From Podarcis gaigeae (lineage: Eukaryota): a stretch of DNA of 64,000 nt. Below the pieces are notes generated by a model that was given only the letters and a program-made list of their open reading frames with translations, was not told where the DNA came from and made no database searches. Below, piece by piece: positions 44,712 through 57,447 of this stretch (its first letter is position 1; each line of letters opens with the position of its first letter). The position numbers and the translations under genes are program-made. The stretch is taken from assembly GCA_964106915.2 (NCBI GenBank), contig OZ066916.1, one strand, 5' to 3'.

Positions 44712-44995
44712 ACAGTAAGAGCTGCTTGGCAGTGGAAGAGACTCCCACCAGAAGCGGTGGACTCTCCTTCCTTGGAGGTTTCTAAGCAGAGGTTGGATGG
44801 CCATCTGTCATGGATGCTTTAGCAGAGATTCCTGCATTGCAGAGGGTTGGACTAGATGATATAGCTGACAACTTATCCCTTTTTTTCCAGGGAAATTCCC
44901 TTATTCCGAATAGGATTCCTTGAAGAAAAGGGAAAAGTTGACAGCTATGCTAGATGACCCTTGGGGTCTCCCCAACTCTAAATTTCTATGATTCT
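44712..44995 (+). mobile_element. CR1 LINE 3' fragment
   Basis: Homologous to 45843-46027; ends TTCTATGATTCT. Confidence 0.8.
44860..44949. mobile_element. 90 bp hAT mini-element inside CR1
   Basis: TIR TATAGCTGACAACT / AGTTGACAGCTATG; perfect TSD CTAGATGA at 44852-44859 and 44950-44957. Confidence 0.9.
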
Positions 44996-50409: not shown

Positions 50410-50888
50410 TATTTGCTTGGTTCCCCCCCCCCACCTCCGACTCAAAATCTCTGCATAAGGAGTTGCCAGCATCTTCTCTGGAAGTTCCCAGCTGTAGCCC
50501 TGGGAGGTGAGGAGGTGGTTGCAGGAGAGAATTGGCAGGTGGAAGGAGTTTGAGGCAAGGGCTGTTGCTCTGTGGTAGAGCTTTGCAATGCAGAAGGCCC
50601 CACATGCAATCCCTGAAGCTCCCAGGTAGGGCTGGGAGCCTAACACCCTAGTGAGCTGCTGCCAGTCGGTTCACAGAATAAAATACAGTATTGGAAAAAG
50701 TAAATAATTAAAGACAAAACAGCAAAACAATTACACCCCCCCTTCCCACAGACAAATTTAAAAGGCTGTAGAATGTTAATCAGCCAAAAGGTAATGAAGA
50801 GGAACATTTCTGCATGGCACCTAAATTATATATAATGAAGGCGCCCGGCGAACCTCCCTGGGGGGAGCATTCCACAAATGGGGAGCCA

Positions 50889-51878
50889 CATAGCTGTCAA
50901 CCGTCCCTTATTTGGTGGGAAACTCCCTTATCCCAGCGCAGTTTCCCGCTGCTGTCCTGGATTGATGATGTCCTTTAAACTTCCCGGGTTTCAAGCTCGC
51001 CCAGCTCAGGAGGGAAGCAGCAGCTCGGGGTCCTCCGCCGAGAGAGAGCGAGAGAGAGAGCGCGCACGAGCTGCCGCGTCTCCATCTCTCCCTTTCCCCC
51101 CTCAGGGGCGCGTCGTGAGGAGACGGGTGGAGGCGGGCGGGCAGGCAGCCCCTCTCTTGCGAGACTTCCACCGCGCTGCCAGAGGAAGCCGGAGGCGGCA
51201 GCGACTGAGGAGGCGGCCTGAGGGAGGAGGAAGAGGAGGGGATGGGGAGGGACACAGAAGGGTGGCGCTTCAGTGGCCGCCGCGGCCCCACAACCGCCTC
51301 TTGCCAGGCTCGTGGGTGGCATGGGCGAGAGTCTCTCTCCTTCCCTCCCTCTCTCTCGGGCGGGGAAGGGCTGATGGAACTCCTCGCACCAGGACGATGG
51401 CAGCCCCAACATGCTGCTTAGCATACCCTCCAATCAGTGCAGCATCTTAATGTAGTGATTTCCCCCTCTGCATCCCTTTCGTAACTCTATTTTTTATAAA
51501 TCATTTGTCCATCCATAGTTCAAATTTTTACTACAAGTTTTCTGTCAATCCTACCAATGTATGTAACTCTTTACAATAGCTTTTCAAATAAATTATAAAC
51601 TTTCCCCATTCTTTATTAAAGAGGTCCTCTTCCTGGTTTCTAATTCTGCCTGCAAGCTTTGCCATCTCGACCTGGTTCATCAGTTTTGTCTGCCACTCTT
51701 CTTTGGTCGGCGTTCTTGACCCTTAGGATCATCTAGTTCAACCCCCTGCAAAACACAGTCAGTGGCAGCCAAAGCAGCATGGCTCTATCAGTGGTGGATT
51801 TCTATATAAGCTAAGTAAAATCCCTTATTTTTGAGGCTGCTGGTCCCTTCTTTTCAAATCTGTAAGTTGACAGCTATG
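50889..51878. mobile_element. hAT-type element with composite internal cargo, inserted into an L2 fragment
   Basis: TIR CATAGCTGTCAAC / GTTGACAGCTATG; TSD GGGAGCCA/GGAGCCA; L2 sequence continues on both sides. Confidence 0.85.
51400..51716 (-). mobile_element. L1-clade ORF2 C-terminal fragment with partial 3' UTR
   Basis: RTPTKEEWQTKLMNQVEMAKLAGRIRNQEEDLFNKEWGKFIIYLKSYCKEL..* (51716-51531). Confidence 0.75.
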
Positions 51879-53099
51879 GGAGCCACTACAGAGAAGGCCT
51901 GTTCTTGTATTGCAACCTCCGGACCTCACATGAAGGAGGCACACAAAGAAAGGCCTTAGAGAATGAATGCAGAGTCCGGGCAGTTTATATTGGTAGAGGT
52001 GGTCCTTGATACTGAGCCAGATGGTATAAGACTAGGTATAAGGCACCAGCCTATGTTCTTCTCCATTTAAATGCCTGAAAAGAGCAGTGATGAAGGGTGG
52101 TATAATAACAATAGAAACAAAACCAACAGCAACAACATATTACAAGTCACAGGTTCCCCAGTTCTGAACTATAATGGGCAAAATAATTTTGTGTTGGCTA
52201 AGCCTTTTAATTTATTGTGATTGACCTATGCTGTCTTTTCTCCCCAGAGATAAAGCATATTTCAATAGCATATTTTTTTTTAGATGATTGTGCATATGTC
52301 TTGCGTTTTTTTCCTAAGAAAATGAGTAAGAAAAGAAAGACTATTAAATTGACATGCATTCCCTGGATAAAATGTCCCGAATCAAGGCCATTTTATAATT
52401 TGTTAAGGTGCCTTGACCTTCCCTCCATGAAACTTCCTAACTCTTTTTTTTTATCTACCATACAGCCTTGCAGAGTTTTCAAAGAGATTCCAATCTACAC
52501 TTTCAAGTTGGAAGAAAATTGCTTTCACACTTTAGAAAACTAATCAAAAAATTCATTCTGCCACCCATCTAGTTTTGATTTGTATTGGTTTGCTGGATAT
52601 TTCCCCCAATGAAGTAATAATAACAATAAATTACTCTTCAAACGAATCATCATTTTATGAATATTTTTATTTGATATTCACTCTTTCTCCACTGCCTCCC
52701 TGCACCTGCAATACGCTAGAGTTCCACTTCCCTGCCATTTTTTGGTTTTTACTGGCCCTGCTCAGTGACGGCCTGACACAGAGATTAAACAGCAAAAGTC
52801 TTTCCAGCCATGAAGATAAGTAGCAGAAAAATTGACACCAAATTAATTTCCATGGGTCAGACTGCTGTTAAGAGCACAAGAGCAGGGCCAATATAAAAGG
52901 CAGTGGCAGCAGATCCAGCTCTGGTCACTACAGGCTATGAATCCCGTGTATCTCTTCCAGCTTAAAAATAATAATATTTTAAATAGTTAAATTAAGTTTT
53001 ATGGCTGTATTAAGAGATCTTTTGCTGCTTTGAGCAAAGTCATGGAACTTCTGTAATCTACAAAGAGAGAAAATATTGCACTTCATGTTGTAGCCTAAT

Positions 53100-54770: not shown

Positions 54771-55239
54771 GAGAAGCAGCTGAGCATCCCATCTCTATGG
54801 GTTTGTGTGGAAGTAGGAGCGCCAGTTTGGCCCCACCAGCATGGCTGCCCGGGGCTGTGTGCATGATCCTGGCGCCAAAATGTGTGGGTGCCCGGCCCCT
54901 TCACGGGGAATTTGGTGGGTGCTTGGACACATAGGGAGCAGCCACTTATGTGTGCAAGCTTCCCTGAGTGAACGTCCCCTTACCATGCAACTGCGACTGG
55001 GAAATTTTATGTCAAGTGTTGCATTGCAGTATACTTGGCACGGATTGTTGCATTCCGACGATCATTTCGGGTGAGGAAGCCAGGCTTTTCATTATAACAT
55101 TTCGACGTTTATATAACCAAGTTCTTCATTAAAAAAAAAGAAGGAAACCCTCGATGTAGAGATGCACGAGGATGCCGGGAGGAGAGAGAAAGAGAAAATC
55201 CCCTCCAAACACACTGCAAACTGAGGCTTAAACGGAAAC

Positions 55240-55700
55240 AACCAGAGGTCAGTGCAACGCCACAACTTGTCACTAGCTGTAGTAGCAGCCGCCGCCACGG
55301 CTCACAAAAGCTCCTATTTCACAGCTCGCGCTGCGGAAGGATATTTTACCTTGTTTACCCTGCAGCCGGCTCATTGAATGAGTGGAAAGAGGGAAGGGGA
55401 GGGAGAGGCTTGGGCAGGCTTTGCTCGTGTGATTGGCGCTTCGCCGGCTCAATGGGGAGGCACCTCGGGGCTCGGGGCGGGCCCTCTCCGCGGAGCCAGT
55501 CGGCTCTGCGGCGGCGGGGACTGGGCAGGCAGTCAGTCTCTTAGCCAGCCAGCCAGCCTGCTCGCTTGCCTGTGCGCTCCGGTTCGGCGTAAATGCGCTG
55601 GAGCTGCTGCAGCCGCCGCCGTTTGTGACACCCAGTAAGTAGAGACGCAGCGAGAGAATTCCCAGCGCACGTAAGTAGCTATTAATACATGGTGGGGAAG
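55240..55700 (+). promoter_or_regulatory. TRIB2: TRIB2 CpG-island promoter (TSS not determined)
   Basis: Abrupt rise in CpG density; inverted CCAAT (ATTGG, 55432) and GC box GGGGCGGG (~55474); repeat-free to the ATG. Confidence 0.7.
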
Positions 55701-55973
55701 ATGATGCCTTGCTGAAAGGGATTGGCTCGGCCATCCCTTTCCCTCCCTACCTCCTCCTCCTACCTCCAGGAATTAAGAGAGATCGACGCCTGAAATAACT
55801 GAGTATATATACATATATATATATTCTACACACACGCACATATTCAACGTGCATCTTTAAAGTAGCAGCATCTCCTCCGCATCTCAGGACTCTCAAAAGG
55901 AGGGACAAAGAGGAAACCGGCGAAAGGAGGTCTCCTCTCTTGCAGAGCTACTATTGTTAAGTATTCGCCTTTC

Positions 55974-57177: not shown

Positions 57178-57447
57178 ATGAACATACAAAGGTCAACCCC
57201 AATCACAATCGCACGCTATGGAAGACCTCGGAATAAAACCCAGGATTTTGAAGAGCTTTCTTCTGTAAGGCCCACCGAGTCCAGCCAGAGTTTCAGCCCC
57301 AATCTCGGCTCACCCAGCCCGCCAGAGACTCCCAACTTGCCGCATTGCGTTTCTTGCATCGGGAAATACTTACTGCTGGAGCCTCTGGAAGGAGATCACA
57401 TTTTTCGAGCCGTGCATCTGCACAGTGAGGAGGAGCTGGTTTGCAAG
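57178..57447 (+). CDS. TRIB2: Tribbles pseudokinase 2, coding exon 1 (aa 1-90)
   Basis: [75 protein letters not shown]; donor AAG|GTAACA, phase 0. Confidence 0.98.

What the first reader, a model, noticed from the sequence alone, without database searches (positions are those of the whole stretch)
50889..51878. Pack-type hAT element carrying a CpG-island-like segment near the TRIB2 promoter
Seen: between matched TIRs and TSD lie ~400 bp of GC/CpG-rich promoter- or 5'UTR-like sequence (~50990-51400, GGCGGG boxes, GA tracts), a tail-less L1 ORF2 end (51400-51716), a short CR1-like piece (~51721-51750) and other fragments. The element splits an L2 relic, so the cargo most likely arrived in or with it. 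Known: Pack-MULE/Pack-TIR capture is well described in plants and less so in vertebrates. Inference: a vertebrate DNA transposon shuffling host regulatory DNA and placing an ectopic CpG island ~4 kb upstream of TRIB2.
Basis: partly seen in the sequence, partly recalled or inferred. Interest (0 to 1): 0.7.

Follow-up and report, generated by a model that had tools for sequence, protein, structure and literature searches.

The report
Transposon spreading a DGKQ promoter copy
A small cut-and-paste transposon in a lizard carries an 820-base copy of the DNA just upstream of the DGKQ gene's start codon, likely its promoter, in at least 173 places, but the copies, including this one near TRIB2, are losing their CpG sites and are likely silent.

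Summary
The element is real and the capture is now shown, with the donor found. Window 50889-51878 is a non-autonomous hAT (13-bp TIRs; family TSD 8 bp, 7 bp here). Its whole interior (50992-51818) is one block copied from a single TIR-free locus on contig C30, running from the DGKQ start codon about 820 bp upstream. The 'L1 end' and 'CR1 piece' are old relics that lay in that donor DNA; they are not separate cargo. A transposase-bearing relative shares only the termini. The loaded element is not a one-off: 173 exact junction hits, about 250 copies. The donor groups with the three copies within 2 Mb of it, which suggests capture nearby and then spread. The TRIB2 story is unsupported: this copy keeps 26 of 40 donor CpGs (family mean 58%), has lost the ATG, the ETS site and two GC boxes, and points away from TRIB2. 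It is a multicopy Pack-TIR, a known kind, but far more amplified than the 3-copy frog example in print. This scan noted similar promoter captures by hATs on other DNA (CENPW in this genome; TPR, DNAH10, RAPSN elsewhere).

The parts
50882..50888 (+). left target-site duplication GGAGCCA (7 of the family's 8 bp)
50889..50901 (+). left TIR CATAGCTGTCAAC
   Evidence: same in 28 of 30 loci
50889..50993 (+). native hAT left end (105 bp, repeated TCCCTTAT subterminal motifs), shared with the transposase-bearing relative L111:1164-4113
   Evidence: consensus 1-105 matches at 92%
50992..50994 (-). position of the DGKQ start codon (CAT on +); mutated to CAA in this copy, kept in 26 of 28 aligned copies; CA is a 2-nt microhomology between native end and donor
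50992..51357 (-). captured DGKQ 5' flank, part 1: CpG island holding the 5'UTR and likely core promoter (donor L200:7116-7485)
   Evidence: 86% to donor for this copy, 93% for the family consensus; gene identity
51344..51818 (-). captured DGKQ 5' flank, part 2 (donor L200:5473-5912); in today's donor a younger ~1.2 kb L1-like insertion separates parts 1 and 2
51410..51716 (-). old L1 ORF2 3' relic, part of the donor DNA (3' border not tested)
51718..51752 (+). CR1-like tail relic, part of the donor DNA
51789..51815 (+). first ~27 bases of an unrelated MITE that is cut off here but runs on across the junction at the donor; fixes the direction donor to element
51817..51878 (+). native hAT right end (one 20-bp subterminal repeat missing in this copy) with right TIR at 51866-51878
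51879..51885 (+). right target-site duplication GGAGCCA
50750..52010 (-). LINE 3' relic (L2-like, name recalled) split by the insertion; borders approximate
55201..55800 (+). TRIB2's own CpG-island promoter region (context, not part of the element); TRIB2 ATG at 57178

Best explanation
This is one of at least 173 copies of a non-autonomous hAT transposon whose interior is an 820-bp copy of the DNA upstream of the DGKQ start codon, likely picked up once by template switching during repair or replication, likely spread by a related hAT transposase, and likely methylated and silent today. Shown: the termini, the TSDs, the donor, the single contiguous block, the direction of copying, the copy count and the CpG decay. 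Inferred: (1) a hAT copy near DGKQ switched template at 2-nt microhomologies (CA on the left, possibly AA on the right) and replaced its native interior; (2) the first copies landed within 2 Mb of the donor and a derived master then spread genome-wide; (3) the intron-containing hAT transposase with the same ends moved it in trans; (4) the block holds the DGKQ transcription start and core promoter; (5) germ-line methylation drives the CpG loss, so the copy near TRIB2 is a bystander.
For: Donor: 1 of 24 exact hits of a CpG-intact 21-mer has no hAT end, the other 23 are family copies; the same locus was hit 2 of 40. It matches consensus 104-464 (347/372) and 451-924 (412/475, one 35-nt gap), with no TIR in 9.9 kb. 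The ORF starting at the junction is DGKQ: top hit Zootoca diacylglycerol kinase theta among 54 of 54 candidates, 97 of 116 identical from Met1. Direction: the N-terminus MADG/MAEG is conserved in Pogona, Rhineura, two snakes and Emys, and the MITE cut at the right junction continues only at the donor. Not native: the 2950-bp transposase-bearing element (PF05699, E 2e-12, 8-bp TSD) shares only positions 1-105 and 926-1002; 25 of 30 right-end loci have interiors derived from that element's own 5' region and only 1 of 30 has this cargo. Copies: 173 exact junction hits; 45 of 66 known copies match that pattern, giving about 250. Decay: CpG positions diverge 21% per base against 2.7% elsewhere; the consensus keeps 39 of 41 donor CpGs, copies keep 58% on average (n=58, SD 8%, max 80%), 89% of losses are TG/CA. 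Origin nearby: at 27 sites where the donor allele is rare, the three copies within 2 Mb share 8, 7 and 5; 59 of 66 copies share 0 or 1; donor plus these three group with UFBoot 96 on 632 non-CpG columns, 45 of 66 copies.
Against: No transcription start was mapped, so 'promoter' rests on position, CpG density and recalled motifs. No intact autonomous partner was found; the three transposase-bearing places seen are broken, so a different 5' arrangement in a lost autonomous copy cannot be seen directly. The tree is unrooted and nearly star-like; gene conversion from the donor could also make nearby copies donor-like. The nearby copies are not closer to the donor overall (L197 5.1%, median 5.6%). 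CpG decay records past germ-line methylation, not present somatic state; this copy is on the higher side (0.65 against 0.58 +/- 0.08). Samples of copies were chosen by likeness to queries, not at random.
Confidence: 0.85

Rival explanations
1. The copy works as an ectopic CpG island, promoter or enhancer that changes TRIB2 expression.
For: Still meets a CpG-island cut-off (GC 0.69, o/e 0.71); 3.3 kb from the TRIB2 island; keeps the BANP-like motif (motif recalled, one mismatch even in the donor); weak hints that the insertion is shared by related species (a right-junction contig in run X5 with 44 bases inside and 29 outside, short of the tool's 31-base rule). CpG-island promoters can fire both ways (recalled).
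Against: 26 of 40 donor CpGs kept, within 1 SD of the family mean; 13 of 14 losses are TG/CA. ATG, ETS site and two of three consensus GC boxes are lost. DGKQ sense points away from TRIB2. With about 250 such copies and thousands of family members, one within 4 kb of some promoter is expected (inference).
Confidence: 0.07
2. The direction is reversed: a hAT copy inserted at DGKQ, lost both ends and now supplies the gene's 5'UTR and promoter.
For: Only the sequence identity itself; donor-like copies cluster near the locus.
Against: No TIR or TSD trace at the donor; the shared block ends exactly at an ATG conserved in distant reptiles; the MITE truncated in the element is whole-ended at the donor; the transposase-bearing relative lacks the block.
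Confidence: 0.03
3. Capture as described, but the donor-like nearby copies reflect later gene conversion from DGKQ in cis, not an origin next to the donor.
For: Shared donor alleles are patchy and differ among L157, L197 and L198; L197 and L198 also keep the most CpGs (0.77, 0.80).
Against: Some alleles are shared by two or all three nearby copies and by none of the others (site 68 in 3 of 60, site 80 in 2 of 60, site 328 in 2 of 48), as expected for an early lineage; L157 lacks the donor's 35-nt deletion; overall distance to the donor is not reduced.
Confidence: 0.25
4. The GC-rich part is native transposon sequence and the L1/CR1 bits are later nested insertions.
For: The family does collect LINE pieces (an RTE-like 3' piece inside L111's right end), and its native 5' region is also fairly GC-rich.
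Against: The whole interior, LINE relics included, is colinear with the single-copy DGKQ flank and absent from the transposase-bearing copy.
Confidence: 0.01

Closest known systems
Multicopy animal Pack-TIRs, esp. Pack-hAT-N8_XT of Xenopus tropicalis (Tan et al. 2021, PMC8277862; read: passages, sections 7 and 9, a supplement term search)
   Same: Non-autonomous hAT ends around a host 5' gene region (there 291 bp of the CAPSL 5'UTR); distinct TSDs; GC-rich cargo; 2-bp microhomology and a parent near the source element as in their FoSTeST model for Ssk-FB4.
   Different: They found 4 multicopy cases among 370 Pack-TIRs in 100 genomes, the shown one with 3 copies, and 0 Pack-TIRs in the one lizard (anoCar2, Supplementary Data 2 row). 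Here at least 173, about 250 copies, with deletion and inversion sub-lineages and a trace of the founding lineage. Copy numbers of their other three multicopy cases were not seen.
hobo_AC and its non-autonomous families in Anolis carolinensis (Novick et al. 2011, PMC3014272; read: passages)
   Same: Lizard hAT elements that take up blocks of genomic DNA containing old TE fragments and amplify to hundreds of copies; their reading that the TE bits came with genomic DNA is what is shown here.
   Different: Different TIRs (TAGGCTTGMTC); the words 'promoter' and 'host gene' occur 0 times in that text; no gene donor named in the passages read.
HelibatN3 Helitrons carrying the NUBPL promoter in Myotis bats (Grabundzija et al. 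2016, PMC4778049; read: passages; Thomas et al. 2014, PMC4224331, listing only)
   Same: A host promoter plus the start codon amplified to many copies by a DNA transposon (15 genes' promoters, 4,690 copies in all).
   Different: Rolling-circle, not cut-and-paste; that cargo has a splice donor and was shown to drive transcripts. Here the cargo stops at the ATG, has no donor splice site from DGKQ, and no activity is shown.
Plant Pack-MULEs (as summarised in PMC8277862; otherwise recalled)
   Same: TIR element with GC-rich 5' gene cargo, multicopy by transposition.
   Different: hAT with short TIRs and 8-bp TSD; one donor block, not several genes' fragments.

Membership tests
hAT superfamily (non-autonomous member) | 8-bp target-site duplication | tested here: met
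   41 of 61 copies exact, 44 within one mismatch; this copy shows 7 bp
hAT superfamily (non-autonomous member) | short TIRs | tested here: met
   13-bp perfect TIRs
hAT superfamily (non-autonomous member) | terminal motif YARNG as given by Novick et al. for anole hATs | tested here: not met
   CATAG has T at the R position; a typical motif, outweighed here by TSD and transposase
hAT superfamily (non-autonomous member) | same ends as an element encoding a hAT transposase | tested here: met
   L111:1164-4113, same ends, 8-bp TSD, PF05699 E 2.3e-12; broken, not intact
hAT subgroup (Blackjack-like, recalled from end structure) | transposase phylogeny | not tested
   no tree or library comparison made; label is a recollection only
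Pack-TIR (Tan et al. 2021) | both TE ends flank internal sequence not found in the parent TE | tested here: met
Pack-TIR (Tan et al. 2021) | a parental copy elsewhere in the genome that is not tied to the TIR element | tested here: met
   G000:C30 about 4.584-4.586 Mb, no TIR in 9.9 kb
multicopy Pack-TIR | same chimeric structure at several loci with distinct TSDs | tested here: met
multicopy Pack-TIR, FoSTeST route | microhomology at breakpoints and source element close to the parent | tested here: inconclusive
   2-nt CA left, possible AA right; donor groups with copies 0.8-2 Mb away; gap repair or conversion not excluded
functional (unmethylated) CpG-island promoter | CpGs protected from decay | tested here: not met
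   26 of 40 kept, 13 of 14 losses TG/CA
functional (unmethylated) CpG-island promoter | open chromatin and capped transcripts | not testable with these tools
   only assembled contigs were available

The most novel reading that the evidence does not exclude
Probability: 0.2. Interest if true: 0.75.

Novelty: new member of a known kind. Interest (0 to 1): 0.5.

Why it matters
It is an unusually clean and unusually large vertebrate Pack-TIR: known donor, exact junctions, fixed direction, about 250 copies against 3 in the published frog example, and a visible founding lineage next to the donor. That makes two open points testable in one system: how multicopy Pack-TIRs arise (template switch in cis, then transposition), and whether a CpG island keeps itself unmethylated when the same sequence is dropped into hundreds of genomic contexts. 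The sequence record here says mostly not. No report of this family was found in the searches made, which cover only the open-licence library and not Repbase or Dfam.

Tried and rejected
Searching with the whole element or the whole GC part returned only sibling copies; the donor was crowded out. A 25-nt CpG-intact motif had 0 hits; it spanned a column where copies vary and where the donor differs, so it said nothing. The donor was already hit 2 but I first read it as a broken copy and recognised it only. A 9-bp (hAT19-like) or 7-bp (P/hATw-like) TSD reading was dropped. The multi-copy hAT ORFs of 658 and 730 aa in this genome have no matching TIRs within the 7-kb stretches fetched (8 loci). 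The donor of the type C sister subfamily was not found: 30 loci, 30 and 12 more fetched (sets overlap) were all family copies. No RNA holder was listed; contigs of four runs guessed to be RNA cover parts of the family but cannot show expression of this copy. Presence or absence at this site in other species stayed inconclusive: no contig bridged a junction by 31 bases on both sides among the rows shown, and empty-site joints had short sides and likely come from other LINE copies. A Pfam scan of the L1 relic was not obtained because the frame has stops. Paper search returned only unrelated CpG-island papers.

Full report
Observation. The element runs from 50889 to 51878 with perfect 13-bp TIRs (CATAGCTGTCAAC) and a 7-bp duplication GGAGCCA. 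The GC-rich part (50990-51400) has GC 0.69 and CpG o/e 0.71; the window averages 0.44 and 0.34. The flanks join into a continuous LINE 3' relic, and other copies of that repeat cross the site without the element. The gene downstream is TRIB2 (ATG 57178), with its own CpG island at about 55200-55800. The host is a lacertid-type lizard by protein likeness.

It is a family, not a one-off. All 40 scored places of a whole-element search match at least 800 of 990 bases, at 85-90% apart from the window itself. Of 30 loci, 28 had both TIRs and 21 of these an exact 8-bp TSD; over 66 distinct copies gathered later, 41 of 61 with both TIRs have an exact 8-bp TSD. So the family is hAT-type and this copy likely lost one base. 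The right-end 24-mer occurs 2046 times. In the first 30 of these on contig C1 the same ends enclose different interiors: 21 of a ~520-bp type or its extensions, 4 of a ~600-bp type, 2 of a GC-rich 800-1160-bp type (type C), 1 with the window's cargo, 2 others.

The cargo is not native. A PF05699 search gave one hit beside the family's right end. It is a 2950-bp element with the same ends, an 8-bp TSD and an intron-broken, partly deleted hAT transposase. It shares only positions 1-105 and 926-1002 with the window-type consensus, while the 520- and 600-bp types are deletion products of its 5' region. Two more broken transposase places were found; neither holds the cargo.

The donor. Because dispersed copies lose CpGs and a live island does not, I searched a CpG-intact 21-mer: 24 exact hits, 23 inside family copies, 1 without any hAT end. 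That locus (L200, G000:C30, about 4.584-4.586 Mb) matches consensus 104-464 at 347/372 and 451-924 at 412/475 (one 35-nt gap), that is, the whole interior, with no TIR in 9.9 kb. A ~1.2-kb L1-like insertion with a poly-T end and a short flanking duplication splits the donor today and is absent from the copies, so it is likely younger than the capture. The match begins exactly at an ATG on the opposite strand that opens an exon encoding a C1 domain. The top of 54 hits is diacylglycerol kinase theta of Zootoca vivipara, 97 of 116 residues identical from Met1. So the cargo is the ~820 bp upstream of the DGKQ start codon: 5'UTR, likely core promoter, then old L1 and CR1-like relics that already lay there.

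Direction. The start MADG/MAEG is conserved in Pogona, Rhineura, two snakes and Emys, so the ATG predates the element. The last ~27 bases of cargo are the beginning of an unrelated MITE; at the donor it runs on across the junction and matches other copies of that MITE in 4 held loci. The element therefore copied the donor. The left junction has a 2-nt microhomology (CA), the right possibly AA.

Copy number and history. The left junction pattern has 173 exact hits, control 0; 45 of 66 known copies match it, giving about 250. Copies are 2.7% from their consensus outside CpGs (28 copies). There are deletion derivatives and a sub-lineage with an inverted GC piece and 40 bp of the L1 relic. At 27 sites where the donor allele is rare, the three copies within 2 Mb of the donor share 8, 7 and 5; the next shares 4; 59 of 66 share 0 or 1; three copies farther along the same contig share 1, 0 and 0. 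In an unrooted tree of 45 copies plus donor (21 shorter copies left out, 632 non-CpG columns) the donor and these three group with UFBoot 96. They are not closer to the donor overall, which fits an early local lineage better than recent conversion, but conversion is not excluded. The family is present in contigs of six coded organisms' runs.

Is it a working island? The consensus keeps 39 of 41 donor CpGs, so the founder was an intact island. Copies keep 58% (n=58 with at least 30 alignable CpGs, SD 8%, range 32-80%), and 89% of losses are TG/CA; CpG positions diverge about eight times faster than others. This is the mark of germ-line methylation (established knowledge). The window copy keeps 26 of 40, on the higher side but within 1 SD; 13 of its 14 losses are TG/CA. 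It has lost the ATG, the ETS site and two of three consensus GC boxes, and keeps a BANP-like motif (motif names recalled). DGKQ sense points away from TRIB2. Nothing here links it to TRIB2 beyond distance, and no expression or methylation data could be tested.

Mechanism. Shown: ends, TSDs, donor, contiguity, direction, copy number, decay. Inferred: a single template switch by a hAT copy near DGKQ, local first insertions, genome-wide spread by the cognate transposase in trans, then silencing.

Comparison. It meets the Pack-TIR definition of Tan et al. 2021 (PMC8277862; passages, sections 7 and 9, supplement term search). They report 4 multicopy cases among 370, the illustrated hAT case with 3 copies, and none in anole. 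Novick et al. 2011 (PMC3014272; passages) describe anole hobo elements that take up genomic DNA with old TE bits and amplify to hundreds, without naming gene donors in the passages read. Bat Helitrons spread promoters to thousands of copies with shown activity (PMC4778049; passages). Searches for a report on this family found none; repeat libraries were not available. Earlier notes of this scan describe hAT captures of CENPW (this genome, 30-40 copies), TPR, DNAH10 and RAPSN; I did not test them, and a sequence look-up with this element found no look-alike.

Verdict. Real, well anchored, a new and unusually amplified member of a known kind; the TRIB2 claim is unsupported. Interest 0.5.

Noticed in passing
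L204 and siblings (type C; e.g. G000:C33:24.94 Mb): A second subfamily with the same hAT ends, about 950 bp, with a different GC-rich, CpG-island-like interior not in the transposase-bearing copy; 175-232 first-look candidates. Donor not found in the loci examined.
   Followed up: partly
L059:1881-2191: A full-length 7SK RNA retrocopy inside a type C element (Rfam RF00100, 219.6 bits).
   Followed up: partly
L163 (G000:C3:42.61 Mb): A DGKQ-cargo copy holding a ~157-bp insert that reads like mitochondrial ND4 (identity recalled).
   Followed up: no
L111:1164-4113: Intron-containing hAT transposase element, broken; its right end contains an RTE/BovB-like ORF tail (label recalled) that the ~600-bp MITEs inherited.
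   Followed up: partly
L200:5913-7115: A ~1.2-kb L1-like insertion, apparently rearranged inside, splits the DGKQ CpG-island flank about 370 bp upstream of the ATG; it may be polymorphic and could affect DGKQ.
   Followed up: no
L167, L168, L171: Sub-lineage with an inverted GC piece, a short fold-back duplication and only 40 bp of the L1 relic; matching joints occur in runs of other coded organisms. Signs of further template switching.
   Followed up: partly
window 44860-44950: A ~90-bp MITE with the same TIR but different subterminal sequence, inserted in a CR1-like tail with an 8-bp TSD CTAGATGA.
   Followed up: no
G000, listing: Among the 100 of 173 places listed, copies cluster near contig ends (e.g. 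C9 7-21 Mb, C2 107-121 Mb, C15 85-96 Mb, C17 both ends).
   Followed up: no
L103, L104, L105 and listing: Other hAT families with long open transposase frames (658 aa at 10 or more places; 730 aa), possibly recently active; ends not identified.
   Followed up: no
L215 (G000:C31:2.885 Mb): A fused type B / type C element directly beside small coding exons that read like RNF126 (identity recalled).
   Followed up: no
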